Positions 24,083-28,823 of a DNA stretch of 30,192 bases are shown in pieces. Source of the DNA: a virus (lineage: Duplodnaviria > Heunggongvirae > Uroviricota > Caudoviricetes); IMG/VR virus record IMGVR_UViG_3300029071_000017; one strand, 5' to 3'. The notes beneath the pieces were generated by a model. The model saw only the letters and a program-made list of their open reading frames with translations. It had not been told where the DNA came from and made no database searches. Positions within the stretch are counted from its first letter, which is position 1. Each line of letters starts with the position of its first letter. The position numbers and the translations under genes are program-made.

Positions 24083-24757
24083 ATGAAAACAATCCATGAC
24101 ATCCGGCGGTCTAACGCCAGAAAACTGAGAGATGGTGTTGGCGGGAATTCTTCCTTTGCCACTATGATTGATCGCGAGCCAACCCAGACCAGCAGGTTTA
24201 TGGGAGATGGTGCTACTAAAAATATCGGTGACAGCATGGCACGACACATCGAAAAATGTTTCGACCTGCCTGTCGGATGGCTCGATCAAGAACACCAGAC
24301 AACGAACATCACAAAAAAACCTGATGTTTCAATCACTAATAAACAAATCACATTAGTCCCTGTCATATCATGGGTACAGGCCGGAGCATGGAAAGAAGTT
24401 GGATATTCTGAGGTTGATTTGAGCACAGCAGAAACGTATCCCTGCCCTGTCCCCTGTGGGGAAATGACTTATATCTTGCGGGTGATAGGTGATTCAATGA
24501 TTGATGAGTACCGCCCGGGAGACATGATTTTTGTCGATCCTGAAGTACCTGCCTGCCACGGTGACGACGTTATTGCATTGATGCACGATACAGGTGAAAC
24601 CACCTTCAAAAGGTTGATAGAAGATGGGACACAGCGTTATCTCAAAGCGTTAAACCCAAACTGGCCTGAGCCTTACATTAAGATCAACGGTAATTGCTCT
24701 ATAATTGGTACAGTGATTTTCTCAGGAAAACCAAGAAGATACAAAATCAAAGCCTAA
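24083..24757 (+). CDS. CI/C2-type repressor (HTH N-terminus, LexA-like S24 autopeptidase C-terminus)
   Basis: 224-aa ORF; C-terminal ...ISWVQAGAWKEV...VIGDSMIDEY...ETTFKRLIEDGTQRYLKALNPNWPEPYIKINGNCSIIG parallels P22 C2 and the LexA catalytic Ser/Lys region. Confidence 0.85.
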   Translation: MKTIHDIRRSNARKLRDGVGGNSSFATMIDREPTQTSRFMGDGATKNIGDSMARHIEKCFDLPVGWLDQEHQTTNITKKPDVSITNKQITLVPVISWVQAGAWKEVGYSEVDLSTAETYPCPVPCGEMTYILRVIGDSMIDEYRPGDMIFVDPEVPACHGDDVIALMHDTGETTFKRLIEDGTQRYLKALNPNWPEPYIKINGNCSIIGTVIFSGKPRRYKIKA

Positions 24758-24769
24758 TCAATGTTTATG

Positions 24770-24792
24770 AACCTGCTTCGGCAGGTTTTTTT
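24770..24792 (+). terminator. Intrinsic terminator of the repressor gene
   Basis: AACCTGC-TTCG-GCAGGTT hairpin followed by 7 T directly after the repressor stop. Approximate coordinates. Confidence 0.7.
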
Positions 24793-24796
24793 ATAC

Positions 24797-24830
24797 TTGA
24801 CAATGTACCTTTTAGATACATAATGTACCC
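24797..24830 (+). promoter_or_regulatory. pL-like early promoter with operator-like AATGTACC repeats
   Basis: TTGACA-16 nt-CATAAT; AATGTACC occurs at -35/spacer and again overlapping -10, the same TGTACC core as the OR palindromes. Approximate coordinates. Confidence 0.6.
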
Positions 24831-24991
24831 AGGCGAAACAACAAACAGGCAGGACGTCCATGAAGTAGCCCCCTGGAGCATATGAAGTCCAGGATGATTC
24901 GTTAGCAACAAAAAAGCGCCCTACAGGACGCTTAGCTCTTTAACAATCTGGTCCCCATCAACAAGTAACTGATAACTTGAGGAGGTGTGAA

Positions 24992-25198
24992 ATGCACAAA
25001 ACAGAACCCAAAATCGTCGCGCCCGGATACACAAATGAGGAAATTTACGAGTGGATGGCAAAGAAGCTGGCAGCTATAAACCAGCTTCGTGAAGTGCTGT
25101 CTTATCGACAGGAAACAATAGACTCCTTAAAAAAACTGGATCAGGAAATCACGGTTTTATCACAGGATGTTACTTTAGATATTGTGCAGACAAATTAG
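24992..25198 (+). CDS. Small hypothetical protein (68 aa), first ORF of the rightward early operon
   Basis: ORF 24977-25198; start set at MHKTEPKIV with GAGGAGG 6 nt upstream; no Arg-rich motif, so not an N-type antiterminator. Confidence 0.45.
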   Translation: MHKTEPKIVAPGYTNEEIYEWMAKKLAAINQLREVLSYRQETIDSLKKLDQEITVLSQDVTLDIVQTN

Positions 25199-25604
25199 GA
25201 TCCCATTCATTTTCGTCAAAATCATCAAAGTGATGAATTTGTGATCTCCAGTCTCGATAATCTAAAAATTTCTGGGCGGTTACGCTTATTTTATCAAGTG
25301 TGAGTTCATCCTGAATTGAAAGAAGAAGTTCATCAAATTTCATCTCATTAATCTGTTTTGGCATCCAGTGATGCTTCATCAGAATAAGGTGAACCAGAGC
25401 CTTTTTCCCATTCAACTGATTATAGGGAGTGCCGAATTTCTTCCGGTGCTCATGTAAGACAAGGTCCAGAAGAGTAAGTAATGTTGCCCTTGATTCGACT
25501 TTGCTTATTTCGACTGATGACACTACCCCACTGATTTCAATGCCCCGATACTTTCCAACATTTTCACAGTGGGATTTGTACAGCGTGTAGATATTACCGG
25601 ACAT
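25170..25604 (-). CDS. Hypothetical 144-aa protein, AT-rich, convergent to the early operon
   Basis: Clean ORF antisense to pL-direction transcription, AT-rich relative to flanks, AAGGA RBS; 3' end overlaps the 68-aa ORF by about 29 nt. Confidence 0.5.
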   Translation of the reverse strand: MSGNIYTLYKSHCENVGKYRGIEISGVVSSVEISKVESRATLLTLLDLVLHEHRKKFGTPYNQLNGKKALVHLILMKHHWMPKQINEMKFDELLLSIQDELTLDKISVTAQKFLDYRDWRSQIHHFDDFDENEWDPNLSAQYLK

Positions 25605-26148
25605 TTCTTTTCCTTTTGCGTTGTTGGGGATAACCAGATTAACCGAATCCTTGTTGTTGGGGAATAACCAGGTCCACCTCGCCTGATGTGGCTAAAAGCA
25701 GGCACATAACAGCTAAGTATTTTCAACCAGAGAGAATCCTTAGCGTTGTGGTGAATGCGGCTCAGCGCACGCGGGTTAAGGTTGAGGCTGACAGTCGACC
25801 TTCTGTGGATACCCACCCGCCTGGTGTGCAACCTTCGCCAGGCACCGGGAGGCACCCGGCACCACAACTTTATGCTGTGTGTAGTCCTGGCGGTACCAGT
25901 TTGTACCCTTGCTTCCGGCTGGTACCGTCCTTTTTACAAAACAGAGAAGAGCATCACCGGACGACGGGCTCATAACCCAATCCATCCGGGCGGCTGCCAC
26001 CGCAGGTGTTCTTCTCTGTTTTGTGGAGAAACTAACCGCCCCTACGGGGGCATTTATGGAAATGTAATTGACTCAATAATCGCCGGACGGTGAGGGCTTC
26101 CTTTTACCCGAATTCAGCGCGGTGCAGCGCATATACGTGGAGAACAAA
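25605..26148. other. GC-rich non-coding region with direct and inverted repeats (candidate structured RNA / regulatory region)
   Basis: No credible ORF. Direct repeats TTGTTGGGGATAACCAG and TTGTTGGGGAATAACCAG (about 25621-25671); 9-bp inverted repeat CGGTACCAG/CTGGTACCG (about 25891-25927) followed by TTTTT; 15-bp perfect inverted repeat ACAAAACAGAGAAGA/TCTTCTCTGTTTTGT (about 25936-25950 and 26010-26024). Confidence 0.4.
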
Positions 26149-26685
26149 ATGTCATTTATTAAAACTTTTTCCGGGAAGCATTTTTATTATGACAGGATAA
26201 ATAAAGACGACATCGTTATTAACGATATCGCGGTTTCCCTTTCAAATATCTGTCGCTTTGCAGGACATCTTTCACACTTCTACAGTGTCGCCCAACATGC
26301 GGTGCTTTGCAGCCAGCTGGTGCCGCAGGAATTTGCTTTTGAAGCTTTAATGCATGATGCAACAGAAGCATATTGCCAGGACATCCCCGCACCACTGAAA
26401 CGACTTCTTCCTGACTATAAACGGATGGAAGAAAAAATAGACGCCGTAATCCGTGAGAAATACGGGTTACCTCCTGTTATGAGCACGCCAGTGAAATATG
26501 CCGATCTCATTATGCTGGCAACCGAACGCCGCGATCTCGGGCTTGATGATGGCTCTTTCTGGCCTGTGCTGGAAGGTATCCCGGCAACAGAGATGTTCAA
26601 CGTGATTCCACTGGCTCCAGGCCATGCCTACGGGATGTTTATGGAACGCTTTAACGAATTATCGGAGTTACGCAAATGCGCATGA
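26149..26685 (+). CDS. HD-domain phosphohydrolase
   Basis: ORF 26122-26685; start set at MSFIKTF with GGAG upstream; His...HD pattern (...SVAQHAV..., ...LMHDATEAY...). Confidence 0.6.
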   Translation: MSFIKTFSGKHFYYDRINKDDIVINDIAVSLSNICRFAGHLSHFYSVAQHAVLCSQLVPQEFAFEALMHDATEAYCQDIPAPLKRLLPDYKRMEEKIDAVIREKYGLPPVMSTPVKYADLIMLATERRDLGLDDGSFWPVLEGIPATEMFNVIPLAPGHAYGMFMERFNELSELRKCA

Positions 26686-27343: not shown

Positions 27344-27693
27344 TGGAGCCATACAGCCTCACACTCGATGAGGCCTGTCATTTTCTCAAGATATCCAGAC
27401 CGACTGCCATTAACTGGATACGCACAGGGCGTCTTCAGGCAACACGCAAAGATCCCACTAAGAATAAATCTCCTTACCTCACAACACGACAAGCCTGCAT
27501 TGCGGCTCTTCAGTCTCCGCTGCATACTGTCCAGGTGAGCGCGGGTGATGGCATAACAGAGGAAAGAAAATGTCACTCTTCCGCAGAGGTGAAATATGGT
27601 ACGCCAGTTTCACATTGCCGAACGGTAAAAGATTTAAACAGTCTCTTGGAACAAAGGACAAAAGGCAGGCGACAGAACTCCATGACAAGCTAA
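27343..27693 (+). CDS. xis: Excisionase (P22-type)
   Basis: ORF 27259-27693; start set at [38 protein letters not shown], which resembles P22 Xis as I recall it; immediately upstream of and overlapping int. Confidence 0.75.
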
Positions 27694-28733
27694 AGGCTGA
27701 AGCATGGCGGGTCAGCAAACTTGGTGAAATACCTGATATAACGTTCGAGGAAGCGTGTGTCAGGTGGCTTGAAGAGAAAGCACATAAAAAATCACTGGAC
27801 GATGACAAAAGCCGGATCGGATTCTGGCTTCAACATTTCGCAGGAATGCAACTAAGAGACATTACTGAATCAAAAATTTATTCAGCAATGCAGAAAATGA
27901 CGAACCGGCGTCATGAGGAAAACTGGAAACTCAGGGCAGAAGCATGCAGAAAAAAAGGGAAACCTGTTCCAGAATACACGCCAAAACCAGCGTCCGTTGC
28001 AACGAAGGCTACGCATCTTTCATTTATAAAGGCCCTACTAAGAGCCGCAGAGCGTGAATGGAAAATGCTGGATAAGGCACCAATTATTAAAGTGCCTCAA
28101 CCAAAGAATAAACGGATCCGCTGGCTGGAGCCCCATGAAGCACAAAGGCTGATTGATGAATGTCCGGAGCCATTAAAGTCTGTTGTTGAATTTGCACTGG
28201 CAACAGGCTTAAGACGCTCGAACATCATCAACCTTGAATGGCAACAAATAGATATGCAGCGCCGGGTGGCATGGATAAACCCGGAAGAGAGTAAATCAAA
28301 CCGCGCAATTGGCGTTGCGCTGAATGATACTGCATGTCGCGTATTGAAAAAACAAATCGGGAATCATCACCGTTGGGTATTTGTGTACAAGGAAAGCTGT
28401 ACCAAACCAGACGGAACGAAAGCGCCAACAGTAAGGAAGATGCGGTATGACGCAAACACAGCCTGGAAAGCGGCGCTGAGACGGGCTGGTATTGATGATT
28501 TCAGATTTCACGACTTGAGACACACCTGGGCAAGTTGGCTGGTTCAAGCCGGAGTCCCGTTGTCAGTGTTACAGGAAATGGGAGGCTGGGAGTCTATCGA
28601 AATGGTTCGTCGATATGCTCACCTTGCACCTAATCACCTTACCGAACACGCACGGCAAATAGACTCGATCCTGAACCCATCGGTCCCAAATTTGTCCCAG
28701 TCAAAAAATAAGGAAGGTACTAATGATGTGTAA
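27570..28733 (+). CDS. int: Tyrosine integrase (P22 Int-like)
   Basis: 387-aa [51 protein letters not shown]...; C-terminal R...HDLRHTWAS...MVRRYAHL catalytic signature; ends 14 nt before the tRNA 3' end. Confidence 0.9.
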
Positions 28734-28747
28734 CTTATTGATTTAAA

Positions 28748-28823
28748 TGGTGCCGATAATAGGAGTCGAACCTACGACCTTCGCATTACGAATGCGCTGC
28801 TCTACCAACTGAGCTATATCGGC
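28748..28823 (-). tRNA. thrW: tRNA-Thr (anticodon CGU), thrW-type; prophage attachment site at its 3' end
   Basis: Reverse complement reads GCCGATATAGCTCAGTTGGTAGAGCAGCGCATTCGTAATGCGAAGGTCGTAGGTTCGACTCCTATTATCGGCACCA: 7-bp acceptor stem, CGT anticodon in a 7-nt loop, T-arm GGTTCGACTCC, 3' CCA. Coordinates within 1 bp. Confidence 0.9.

What the first reader, a model, noticed from the sequence alone, without database searches (positions are those of the whole stretch)
25605..26148. About 540 bp of GC-rich, repeat-rich non-coding sequence: candidate structured RNA
No six-frame ORF here looks like a protein (the candidates are Arg/Pro/Cys-rich and overlapping). The DNA contains two near-identical direct repeats TTGTTGGGGATAACCAG right upstream of the 144-aa gene start; a 9-bp inverted repeat CGGTACCAG/CTGGTACCG with a 19-nt loop followed by TTTTT, which looks like a + strand terminator or attenuator; and a perfect 15-bp inverted repeat ACAAAACAGAGAAGA/TCTTCTCTGTTTTGT enclosing ~59 nt. 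The GGTACC/TGTACC cores recur in the repressor operators, which hints at repressor-controlled regulation. It may encode a structured RNA (antitermination element, sRNA or RNA partner of a flanking protein) or be the control region for the convergent gene.
Basis: seen in the sequence. Interest (0 to 1): 0.7.

Follow-up and report, generated by a model that had tools for sequence, protein, structure and literature searches.

The report
Structured RNA leader of prophage early operon
This 540-bp gap codes for no protein: it is a chain of conserved folded RNA modules, including a divergent copy of the known prophage small RNA STnc100, a terminator and a previously uncatalogued three-way hairpin, placed ahead of the early-left genes of a lambda-like prophage that has no N antiterminator.

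Summary
Window 25605-26148 is non-coding and relatively GC-rich, and its + strand folds far better than shuffled sequence (z -5.2; - strand z -1.4). The region is the leader of the early-left (PL) operon of an SfV/e14/ST64B-type prophage at thrW, and it is modular.

- Two direct repeats and a conserved 38-nt element lie beside the start of the 144-aa gene.
- A 125-nt five-helix core (25745-25868) belongs to the STnc100/PasD/EcOnc27 prophage sRNA family. It scores 43.1 bits in Rfam, below the cut-off of 47, and is a distinct subtype with a compensatorily swapped helix.
- A conserved linker leads to a strong intrinsic terminator, T1 (25889-25935).
- A 99-nt three-way-junction hairpin, "H2" (25931-26029), is not in Rfam.

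Covariation supports both the core (92.5% of pair cells paired against 37-45% in slid controls) and H2 (96% against 43-47%). The annotated ORFs over the region, including K-12 ymfH, have no conserved frame. The GGTACC "operator" hint is wrong. The function is inferred: an sRNA module, a transcriptional gate and a processing hairpin. A further conserved RNA sits directly after PL, outside the finding, and is a candidate N-independent antiterminator.

The parts
25605..25671 (.). Spacer between the 144-aa - strand gene start (25604) and the conserved RNA modules. It holds the two direct repeats (25621-25637, 25654-25671). It may be the promoter/5'UTR of the - strand moron or part of the + strand leader.
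   Evidence: repeats. Klebsiella phage Kp4866-6 has the same layout (repeat, AUUAACCGAWUYC, repeat) with a different repeat sequence, and one search shows a different - strand gene there. No sigma-70 consensus was found on either strand.
25674..25711 (+). 'M38': the conserved element (A)CCACC-NN-GCCUGAUGUGG-NN-AAAAG(A)CAGGC. It contains two overlapping helices (CCAC/GUGG and GCCUG/CAGGC), so it is a possible H-type pseudoknot.
   Evidence: 97% identical over 38 nt to Cronobacter phage phiES15. 38 sequence variants were found among the fetched loci. In phage LLS it sits directly downstream of PL. The helices are invariant, so there is no covariation test. The MFE alone is not significant (z -0.3).
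25715..25744 (+). 5' hairpin and lead-in of the STnc100-like RNA (Rfam model positions 1-30).
   Evidence: Rfam alignment; MFE hairpin 25715-25741.
25745..25868 (+). STnc100-family core, subtype B. Closing helix P1 is GUUGUGGUG/CACCACAAC. Then come J AAU, P2 (GCGG CUCAGCG C-A-CGC), long-range P3, variable P4 and the invariant hairpin P5, CCGGGAGGCACCCGG.
   Evidence: Rfam RF02076: 43.1 bits, E 1e-7, full model 1-206, gathering score 47. On the 85-sequence alignment A2, 11 of 23 predicted pairs carry compensatory changes. 92.5% of cells are paired against 37-45% when slid, and the covariation score is 0.359 against <=0.114.
25869..25888 (+). Conserved single-stranded linker, CUUUAUGCUGUGUGUAGUCC (consensus UUAUUGCUGUGUGUAGUCUUG). 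It is a candidate seed region.
   Evidence: Conserved in e14, ST64B, phiES15, Kp4866-6 and LLS although the adjacent terminator stems differ. No complementary site exists elsewhere in the window.
25889..25936 (+). Intrinsic terminator T1: 13-bp stem, 15-nt loop, then CUUUUUA. It would form the 3' end of the STnc100-like RNA and is weakly DicF-like.
   Evidence: dG -20.5 kcal/mol, z -4.06. Other phages have different stem sequences but the same position and U-tract. 92 of 98 early-left H2 copies have a U-tract directly 5' of the H2 stem. Rfam DicF scores 15.7 bits here and 28.5 bits in e14, against a gathering score of 48.
25931..26029 (+). 'H2': a three-way-junction RNA. Its 25-bp closing stem begins with T1's U-tract paired to GGAGAA. 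Hairpin A has the conserved sequence GAYGACGGGYUCAUAAYCCAAUCCAYC. Hairpin B is variable.
   Evidence: -51.2 kcal/mol, z -6.78. Model R1 scores 121 bits on the sense strand and 42 bits antisense. Across 56 unique sense copies, 96% of cells are paired against 43-47% when slid, with 163 double-change cells against 4-31. Stems are completely different in L199, L250 and P1 but the architecture is the same. No Rfam family matches.
26037..26052 (+). Small GC hairpin 'H3' (GCCCC UACG GGGGC), following the conserved GUGGAGAAACUAAC.
   Evidence: dG -12 kcal/mol, z -2.0. An equivalent hairpin with a different sequence follows GGAGAAAC in ST64B, LLS, Kp4866-6 and L100.
26053..26148 (+). 5' untranslated region and ribosome-binding site (GGAGAACAAAATG) of the HD-domain YfdR-like gene, which starts at 26149.
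   Evidence: This segment travels with the HD gene in SfIV, mEp460 and K-12 CPS-53. Pfam finds YfbR-like/HD_3 in the 178-aa product.

Best explanation
Window 25605-26148 is the non-coding, + strand RNA leader of the early-left (PL) operon of an N-less lambdoid prophage of the SfV/e14/ST64B type, integrated at thrW. It is built from reusable RNA modules.

Shown:
1. A divergent subtype of the STnc100/PasD/EcOnc27 prophage sRNA family: a 5-helix core, a conserved linker and an intrinsic terminator T1. If made as a separate RNA it would be about 220 nt (25715-25936).
2. An uncatalogued three-way-junction hairpin, H2, whose 25-bp stem incorporates T1's U-tract.
3. A small hairpin and the 5'UTR of the first early-left gene in this phage, an HD-domain YfdR-like gene.
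4. None of the ORFs over the region is a conserved reading frame.

Inferred mechanism:
- Transcription comes from PL (TTGACA-16-CATAAT, 24797-24824), about 0.9 kb upstream. It runs through a 68-aa ORF and antisense to the 144-aa moron.
- Polymerases that stop at T1 release an Hfq-type sRNA, as the classical members of the family do.
- T1 also shields the early-left genes (HD gene ... xis, int) from leaky or unmodified transcription.
- After induction, polymerases read through T1. They may have been made termination-resistant by the conserved RNA element that sits directly after PL.
- H2 then forms and acts as a long double-stranded processing or stabilising site, most plausibly for RNase III. 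It would separate the sRNA part from the downstream mRNA, by analogy with DicF in the dicB operon and the RNase III hairpin of the lambda N leader.

The confidence of 0.6 is for the whole statement. The shown parts alone (non-coding, + strand structured RNA, STnc100-family core, terminator, conserved H2) I would put at about 0.9. The inferred mechanism I would put at about 0.4.
For: Position:
- The S24 repressor is at 24083-24757, followed by its terminator and a PL-like promoter that overlaps ATGTACC half-sites.
- The same order (repressor, morons, this RNA region, then yfdP/yfdQ/yfdR-like genes, xis, int) is found in SfIV, e14, ST64B, mEp460, phiNP, LLS, phiES15 and 118970_sal3.

Non-coding:
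- No Pfam hits for the ORFs.
- 1-nt indels between homologues.
- The YmfH frame is a chimera of two window frames.

Strand: + strand z -5.16, - strand z -1.44.

Family:
- Rfam STnc100 full-length hit, 43.1 bits, E 1e-7.
- Loci fetched with the core's 3' motif score 70-104 bits as STnc100 proper.
- The window's P2 is a compensatory version of the family's P2 (GCG/CGC in place of CCC/GGG).
- Covariation statistics.

Family members are real RNAs:
- EcOnc27 is Hfq-crosslinked and lies downstream of stx2B (PMC4104026, PMC12711010).
- PasD was found by RIL-seq and confirmed by northern blot, and is related to STnc100 (bioRxiv 10.64898/2026.05.13.724894).

Terminator.

H2.

Read-through on induction:
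- e14 ymfH, which spans the 3' part of the core, T1 and H2, is listed with xisE, intE, ymfJ and ymfT in the YmfT iModulon and is treated as one operon with xisE-intE (PMC12133099).

No N gene:
- The only ORF between PL and the region has no Pfam hit.
- Casjens, Smith and co-workers state that LLS, which has the same early-left operon type, has no N homologue (PMC12315714).

Spread: part of the region occurs in 3004 of 5426 complete E. coli genomes.
Against: - The Rfam score is below the curated threshold.
- No sigma-70 promoter consensus lies directly upstream of the core, unlike classical STnc100 genes. A free sRNA would therefore depend on PL or on processing.
- T1 has only five U's and a large 15-nt loop, so its efficiency is unknown.
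- No expression data for this locus were available.
- The core is present upstream of only 31 of 98 early-left H2 copies. The modules are therefore separable and need not act together.
- RNase III cleavage of H2, Hfq binding and any target are inferences.
- The invariant nucleotides of the core (GGUGAAU, CCGGGAGGCACCCGG) suggest a specific ligand or protein partner that the sRNA model does not explain.
- The family alignments were ascertained by exact match to conserved motifs, and the H2 alignment was fitted to the model. The paired fractions are therefore somewhat inflated, although the slid controls keep the same bias.
Confidence: 0.6

Rival explanations
1. An RNA-based processive antiterminator, working like HK022 put. 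One of the modules inside the finding (the STnc100-like core, M38 or H2) would bind the elongating RNA polymerase and let it read through T1 and later terminators, replacing the missing N protein.
For: - These phages have no N homologue, yet a strong terminator lies ahead of all early-left genes (PMC12315714 raises put-like antitermination for LLS).
- The modules are structured, conserved and in the right operon.
- M38 sits directly after PL in LLS.
- The repressor and operators are HK022-like (ATGTAC half-sites).
Against: - Classical STnc100 copies are stand-alone genes with their own -10/-35 and a terminator 30-60 nt downstream, often in tandem arrays. Antitermination would make no sense there.
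- The core is optional (31 of 98).
- H2 lies after T1.
- There is no sequence similarity to HK022.
- There is only one copy per genome, not an L/R pair.
- The better-placed candidate is the PLL element at 24839-24904, outside the finding, and even that is not detectably related to put.
Confidence: 0.15
2. A control region (promoter, operators, 5'UTR) for the 144-aa - strand gene, with the repeats acting as protein-binding sites.
For: - The direct repeats lie 17-67 nt upstream of the 144-aa start.
- In many phages a different - strand moron starts 35-70 nt to the left of M38.
- Kp4866-6 has the same repeat layout next to another - strand gene.
Against: - This can account for at most the first ~110 bp.
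- No sigma-70 consensus was found.
- M38 also occurs with no - strand gene beside it (LLS, phiES15).
- The remaining 430 bp is conserved independently of the 144-aa gene and folds strand-specifically.
Confidence: 0.3
3. A protein-coding gene: the YmfH-like 112-aa ORF 25755-26093, or the phrog_3651-like - strand ORF 25776-26000, as annotated in many genomes.
For: - 'Hypothetical protein' or 'protein YmfH' is annotated over the match in many records.
- The - strand ORF matches phrog_3651 with E 6e-50.
Against: - 1-nt indels separate close homologues.
- YmfH joins two different window frames.
- In SfIV the ORF runs on into unrelated sequence to give 226 aa.
- ORF lengths and frames differ in every homologue.
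- No Pfam hit.
- PHROG families are built from annotated ORFs, so conserved DNA alone produces them.
Confidence: 0.03
4. Decayed tRNA genes and recombination scars: the conserved pieces are relics of a phage tRNA/moron zone and mosaic-boundary sequences with no present RNA function.
For: - Hairpin A of H2 has a CUCAUAA loop like a tRNA-Met/Ile2 anticodon loop.
- H2-like modules sit just 3' of tRNA arrays downstream of Q in Klebsiella phages, and among tRNA genes in the P1 ban operon.
- 118970_sal3 has a T-arm-like fragment next to the core.
- STnc100 copies abut tRNA genes.
Against: - ARAGORN and the Rfam tRNA model find nothing in the region.
- Relics would not keep 20-25-bp stems through wholesale compensatory replacement, nor keep 92-96% pairing.
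Confidence: 0.07

Closest known systems
STnc100 (Rfam RF02076) and its relatives EcOnc27/sRNA103 and PasD1/PasD2
   Same: The window aligns to the full length of the model. It has the same closing helix, the same GGUGAAU junction, the same invariant hairpin CCGGGAGGCACCCGG and a 3' intrinsic terminator. It is prophage-borne in Enterobacterales.
   Different: It scores 43.1 bits against a gathering score of 47. P2 is replaced by a compensatory version (subtype B; 17 of 118 unique cores). No promoter is recognisable directly upstream. It is embedded in the early-left operon downstream of the repressor rather than in the late 'moron' site after Q or stx. It is followed by H2. The function of the family itself is still unknown.
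DicF in the dicB operon of the Qin prophage
   Same: An sRNA module inside the PL-equivalent operon of a defective lambdoid prophage, ending at a terminator. T1 shares GGCGGUAYCAGUUUU...GCCGCCCUUUUU-like sequence with DicF (weak Rfam hits). The P1 ban operon, which carries the subtype-B core, also has an annotated dicF-like region.
   Different: The Rfam DicF score (15.7 bits here) is far below the gathering score of 48. DicF has no five-helix core. Complementarity to ftsZ was not examined.
HK022 putL/putR antiterminator RNAs
   Same: An N-less lambdoid phage with HK022-like operators, carrying structured leader RNA in an early operon ahead of terminators.
   Different: No sequence or covariance-model similarity. 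The size and architecture differ: put is ~70 nt with two stem-loops, against a 125-nt five-helix core or a 99-nt three-way junction. There is a single copy. The modules lie 0.9-1.1 kb from PL. put is not followed by its own terminator.
RNase III hairpins of the lambda PL operon (N-leader site, sib)
   Same: A long, nearly perfect duplex (25 bp) in the leader just upstream of the first early-left gene.
   Different: No sequence relation. Cleavage was not tested. H2 carries a conserved three-way junction on top, which the lambda sites lack.
Non-coding part of the phage P1 ban operon (between the tRNA genes and tciA)
   Same: It contains the same subtype-B core (33.4 bits) directly preceded by an H2-like module, plus a second H2-like module.
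   Different: In P1 the order is H2 then core, with no terminator, and the core abuts the tciA start codon. These elements are not annotated as RNA features in the P1 record.

Membership tests
STnc100 (Rfam RF02076) | Covariance-model score at or above the curated gathering score (47 bits) | tested here: not met
   43.1 bits, E 1e-7 in a 1.2-kb scan. It is not reported in the gathering-threshold scan of the window. Classical members score 70-104 bits.
STnc100 (Rfam RF02076) | Full-length match with the family's helices and invariant junction/hairpin sequences | tested here: met
   Model positions 1-206 are aligned. P1, P3, P4 and P5 are present, and P2 is a compensatory variant.
STnc100 (Rfam RF02076) | Stand-alone gene: promoter directly upstream of P1 and an intrinsic terminator 30-60 nt downstream | tested here: inconclusive
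   A terminator is present 21 nt after the core. No sigma-70 consensus lies upstream. The nearest promoter found is PL at 24797-24824.
STnc100 (Rfam RF02076) | Expressed, Hfq-associated RNA | not testable with these tools
   Known only for relatives (EcOnc27 in PMC4104026; PasD in bioRxiv 10.64898/2026.05.13.724894).
HK022 put antiterminator RNA | Sequence/structure similarity to putL/putR | tested here: not met
   blastn of 25500-26200 against HK022 gives no hit. The put sequences read from HK022 share no architecture with the core or H2.
HK022 put antiterminator RNA | Located just downstream of an early promoter, with one copy in each early operon | tested here: not met
   The core starts ~910 nt and H2 ~1100 nt downstream of PL. 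There is a single copy in the window and in the complete SfIV genome.
HK022 put antiterminator RNA | Promotes read-through of terminators in cis | not testable with these tools
   Needs reporter fusions or in vitro transcription.
DicF (Rfam RF00039) | Covariance-model score at or above the gathering score (48 bits) | tested here: not met
   15.7 bits at 25876-25930; 28.5 bits in e14.
tRNA / tRNA-like gene | Cloverleaf recognised by ARAGORN or the Rfam tRNA model | tested here: not met
   The only tRNA in the window is tRNA-Thr at 28748-28823.
Type III toxin-antitoxin (ToxIN-like RNA repeats upstream of a toxin gene) | Tandem full-length repeats followed by a terminator and a ToxN/AbiQ-like toxin | tested here: not met
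   Only two partial copies exist (17-18 of a 33-nt period). The 144-aa protein has no PADLOC or Pfam hit.
Lambda-type N/nut antitermination | An N-like protein gene downstream of PL, with boxA/boxB | tested here: not met
   The only ORF between PL and the region (68 aa) has no Pfam hit and no Arg-rich N terminus. No boxB-like 5-bp stem with a GNRA-like loop was seen (reading). This was a limited test: no dedicated N profile search was run beyond Pfam.

The most novel reading that the evidence does not exclude
The early-left leader of this large class of N-less lambdoid phages (SfV, e14, ST64B, LLS, phiNP, many Stx2c phages) may be an RNA-only regulatory machine unrelated to put. In this reading the PL-proximal element (PLL, 24839-24904) and/or M38 makes RNA polymerase termination-resistant. 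T1 is the checkpoint. H2 is a tRNA-derived processing module shared with late operons and with the P1 ban operon. The STnc100 core, with its invariant GGUGAAU and CCGGGAGGCACCCGG, would then be a protein- or ligand-binding domain rather than a passive sRNA scaffold.
Probability: 0.25. Interest if true: 0.8.

Novelty: new variant of a known kind. Interest (0 to 1): 0.55.

Why it matters
- Part of this region occurs in more than half of complete E. coli genomes, and it is routinely mis-annotated as hypothetical proteins, including K-12 ymfH. Recognising it as RNA corrects those annotations.
- It extends the STnc100/PasD family to a subtype that Rfam's threshold misses, and to a new genomic position, the early-left operon.
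- It defines at least one uncatalogued structured RNA with strong covariation (H2), plus two further candidates (M38, and PLL outside the finding).
- It makes an open question directly testable: how N-less lambdoid phages get past terminators in their early operons.
- It may explain why over-expressing 'ymfH' triggered a retron toxin (bioRxiv 10.1101/2020.06.22.160242). The active agent could be RNA.

Tried and rejected
- Rfam at gathering threshold over the whole window found only tRNA-Thr.
- Permissive Rfam scans gave no match for H2, M38 or PLL.
- HK022 comparison: blastn gave nothing. An inverted-repeat search located the HK022 operators but no shared element. The put sequences were read from the genome and folded and have no common architecture with the window's modules. 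The covariance model of PLL does not hit HK022.
- A second, putR-like copy was looked for and not found.
- Coding hypotheses were tested with Pfam, PHROGs, PADLOC and a frame comparison, then rejected.
- The Type III TA idea for the direct repeats was rejected.
- The operator link for GGTACC was rejected.
- A cis-antisense target of the conserved linker within the window was not found.
- Sigma-54 reading of M38 (TGGC..N..GC) was rejected from reading the sequences, because the spacing differs by 1 nt between homologues.
- A leader-peptide reading of GUGGAGAAAC... was rejected because the would-be start codon is GUG, AUG or ACG in different phages.
- Literature searches for ymfH, ST64B sRNAs and the 2011 paper on put-like RNAs gave no description of these modules. 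The 2011 paper itself could not be read.
Full report
**Context.** The window carries a lambdoid prophage next to tRNA-Thr (28748-28823, - strand) and proA.
- An S24-family repressor gene lies at 24083-24757 (+), followed by its terminator (24769-24788).
- A near-consensus promoter, TTGACA-16-CATAAT, lies at 24797-24824 (+) and overlaps two ATGTACC half-sites. A third half-site lies in the repressor/cro intergenic region. I take this promoter to be PL.
- Downstream come a 68-aa ORF (24992-25198, +), a 144-aa gene on the other strand (25604->25170), the finding region, an HD-domain YfdR-like gene starting at 26149, and then xis and int (27570-28733).
- The 544 bp are 100% identical to E. coli PCN061. 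At least part of them occurs in 3004 of 5426 complete E. coli genomes.

**Observation.**
- The direct repeats are at 25621-25637 and 25654-25671, with none found in 100 shuffles.
- The 9-bp inverted repeat extends to a 13-bp stem followed by CUUUUUA (dG -20.5 kcal/mol, z -4.1).
- The 15-bp inverted repeat is the centre of a 25-bp stem (hairpin 25931-26029, -51.2 kcal/mol, z -6.8).
- GC is 54-56% across 25650-26100 against 37-47% around it.
- The + strand of the whole region folds at z -5.2 and the - strand at z -1.4.

**Not coding.**
- The four ORFs of 74-114 aa have no Pfam match.
- Close homologues differ by single-base indels.
- The annotated K-12 e14 protein YmfH reads first in the frame of window ORF 25688-25975 and then in the frame of ORF 25755-26093, because of a 1-nt deletion.
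- In SfIV the same ORF is extended to 226 aa into unrelated DNA.
- The PHROG hit of the - strand ORF only reflects such annotations.

**Modularity.** Comparison with phages and E. coli genomes splits the region into blocks that occur independently:

| Block | Where else it occurs |
|---|---|
| 25605-25673 | travels with the 144-aa gene |
| 25674-25888 | SfII, SfV, e14, ST64B |
| 25888-26049 | many more phages (mEp460, cdtI, Stx2c phages) |
| 26038-26148 | travels with the HD gene |

In every phage the blocks lie between the repressor and the first early-left genes (yfdP, yfdQ, yfdR-like ... xis, int).

**The core.**
- A permissive Rfam scan gives one meaningful hit: STnc100 (RF02076) at 25715-25937 (+), 43.1 bits, E 1e-7, over the whole model. 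This is just under the gathering score of 47.
- The same sub-threshold hit is found in SfIV and e14. The core alone hits in ST64B and in the phage P1 ban operon.
- Scanning one genome per species with the 3' motif ACCGGGARGCACCCGGCACC returned 120 loci, nearly all from Enterobacterales. These gave 118 unique cores.
- Most are 'subtype A' (AAUCCCCCUnnGCGGnGGGG) and score 70-104 bits as STnc100 proper. They usually have a -10/-35 just upstream and a terminator 30-60 nt downstream, often form tandem arrays, and sometimes sit next to tRNA genes.
- Seventeen cores, including the window's, are 'subtype B' (AAUGCGGCUnAGCGCaCGCG). There the P2 stem is the compensatory version (GCG/CGC for CCC/GGG, G-C for C-G).
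- On 85 non-redundant cores, RNAalifold predicts five helices, and 11 of 23 pairs carry compensatory changes.
- Counting pairs gives 92.5% paired against 37-45% when the partners are slid. There are 289 double-change cells against 57-101, and the covariation score is 0.359 against <=0.114.
- Caveat: P5 and the inner part of P1 are invariant by ascertainment.
- Relatives of this family are real RNAs. EcOnc27 is Hfq-crosslinked downstream of stx2B (PMC4104026; PMC12711010). PasD1/2 are abundant RIL-seq sRNAs judged to share an ancestor with STnc100 (bioRxiv 10.64898/2026.05.13.724894). Their function is not established.

**Linker and terminator.**
- Between the core and T1 lies a ~20-nt stretch (UUAUUGCUGUGUGUAGUCUUG) that stays conserved in E. 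coli, Salmonella, Cronobacter and Klebsiella phages while the terminator stems differ. It is the natural candidate for a seed. No complementary site exists in the window.
- T1 resembles DicF weakly (15.7 bits here, 28.5 bits in e14, gathering score 48). DicF occupies the equivalent operon of the Qin prophage. That placement is from my own knowledge of the dicB operon.

**H2.**
- The hairpin 25931-26029 is a three-way junction.
- Its long stem starts with T1's U-tract paired to a conserved GGAGAA. Hairpin A is conserved (GAYGACGGGYUCAUAAYCCAAUCCAYC, loop CUCAUAA). Hairpin B is variable.
- A scan of viral contigs with the hairpin-A motif gave 120 more loci. Individual folds show the same architecture with entirely different stems, for example in L199, L250 and two copies in the P1 ban operon.
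- A covariance model built from 17 early-left copies scores 121 bits on the window's + strand and 42 bits on the - strand.
- In 56 unique sense matches, 96% of pair cells are paired against 43-47% when slid, with 163 double-change cells against 4-31. The alignment was fitted to the model.
- H2-like modules also occur just 3' of tRNA arrays downstream of Q in Klebsiella phages, and in Pantoea phage PA-1.
- Of 98 early-left H2 copies, 92 are preceded by a U-tract and 31 by the STnc100 core.
- H2 has no Rfam counterpart.

**The 5' part.**
- The 38-nt element at 25674-25711 is 97% identical in a Cronobacter phage and has 38 variants in the loci. Its two overlapping helices could form a pseudoknot, but they never vary, so this cannot be tested.
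- In phage LLS the element lies directly after PL. Elsewhere a different - strand moron usually begins 35-70 nt to its left.
- The direct repeats lie between this element and the 144-aa start. Kp4866-6 has the same layout with a different repeat sequence and a different - strand gene.
- I could not decide whether the repeats act on the - strand gene or in the + strand RNA.

**The operator hint.**
- GGTACC occurs 4 times in the window against 3.65 expected. The two copies in the finding are the two arms of T1.
- The same GGTACC terminator is found in mEp460 and phiNP, whose operators are unrelated.
- The hint is therefore not supported.

**How transcription reaches and passes the region.**
- No promoter consensus lies between the 144-aa gene and the core, so PL is the likely source.
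- Directly after PL I found another conserved RNA, PLL (24839-24904). It has a closing helix CGAA/UUCG and two hairpins.
- PLL is present after at least nine different promoter/operator types. In 45 loci it is always on the same strand, 0.35-1.5 kb upstream of H2.
- On 19 sequences, 90.6% of cells are paired against 20-52% when slid, with G-C/A-U and C-G/G-C/U-A exchanges.
- PLL has no Rfam match. Its covariance model does not detect HK022 putL/putR (best 11 bits) or a second copy in the window.
- Casjens, Smith and co-workers note that LLS has no N homologue and may use put-like antitermination (PMC12315714). In e14, ymfH is co-regulated with xisE, intE and ymfJ (PMC12133099).
- These points fit read-through of T1 on induction, but the mechanism has not been shown.

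**Verdict.**
- Shown: a non-coding, + strand structured RNA leader made of a divergent STnc100-family module with its terminator, an uncatalogued three-way-junction hairpin, and further conserved elements.
- Inferred: production of an Hfq-type sRNA at T1, T1 acting as a gate for the early-left genes, and H2 acting as an RNase III-type processing or stabilising site.
- Rivals: an antiterminator role for the modules in the finding, a control region for the 144-aa gene, a protein gene, and tRNA relics. All are less well supported, for the reasons given under each.

Noticed in passing
window 24839-24904 (+): A conserved ~66-nt two-hairpin RNA ('PLL') begins ~8 nt after the predicted PL start. It is found after at least 9 unrelated operator types and always upstream of H2. 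It shows covariation in its closing helix and second hairpin. It has no Rfam match and is not detected as HK022 put. It is a candidate N-independent antiterminator.
   Followed up: partly
window 24992-25198 (+) and 25170-25604 (-): A convergent, 3'-overlapping gene pair (68 aa, phrog_1744; 144 aa, phrog_5286) sits between the repressor and the early-left genes, the position of rexAB/sieB-type exclusion genes. Neither has a Pfam or PADLOC hit. A bidirectional-looking terminator lies at 24914-24933.
   Followed up: partly
L003 (phage P1, AF234173.1 69.1-69.9 kb; locus 1900-2630): The non-coding part of the P1 ban operon, between the tRNA genes and tciA, is a chain of the same modules. It holds two H2-like three-way junctions, a miniature core-like hairpin and a subtype-B STnc100 core that abuts the tciA start. 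The P1 record annotates a - strand ORF (upl) over part of it.
   Followed up: partly
L051 6323-7018, L114 1903-2346, L016 5491-5933, L103, L129: Classical STnc100 genes occur as tandem arrays of two or three copies, each with its own terminator. They are repeatedly adjacent to tRNA genes. In two loci a tRNA-Ile2-like (CAU) gene starts 9 nt after the core.
   Followed up: partly
L006 409-597 (ST64B) and L007 323-511 (mEp460): A C4 antisense RNA plus isrK pair (Rfam 64-84 bits) lies on the PR side next to antirepressor-type genes in these relatives. The window has no such element.
   Followed up: no
L005 3076-3387 (K-12-type e14 ymfH); literature: Over-expression of 'ymfH' was reported as a trigger of the retron-Sen2 toxin RcaT (bioRxiv 10.1101/2020.06.22.160242). 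The ymfH frame is not conserved and the clone carries the 3' part of the core, T1 and H2, so the trigger might be RNA.
   Followed up: no
L001 26860-27540 (SfIV gp34) and many 'hypothetical protein' calls under: Gene callers place ORFs of varying frame and length over this stop-poor, GC-rich RNA region. SfIV gp34 (226 aa) fuses it to what is probably the real yfdP-like gene.
   Followed up: partly
window 26020-26036 and equivalents (L096, L100, L047): The motif (U)GUGGAGAAAC-UAAC followed by a GC hairpin comes directly after the core in some phages and after H2 in others. The 3' strand of H2 (UUGUGGAGAA) resembles the 5' strand of the core (UUGUGGUGAA). This suggests the modules arose by duplication and recombination of one unit.
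   Followed up: no
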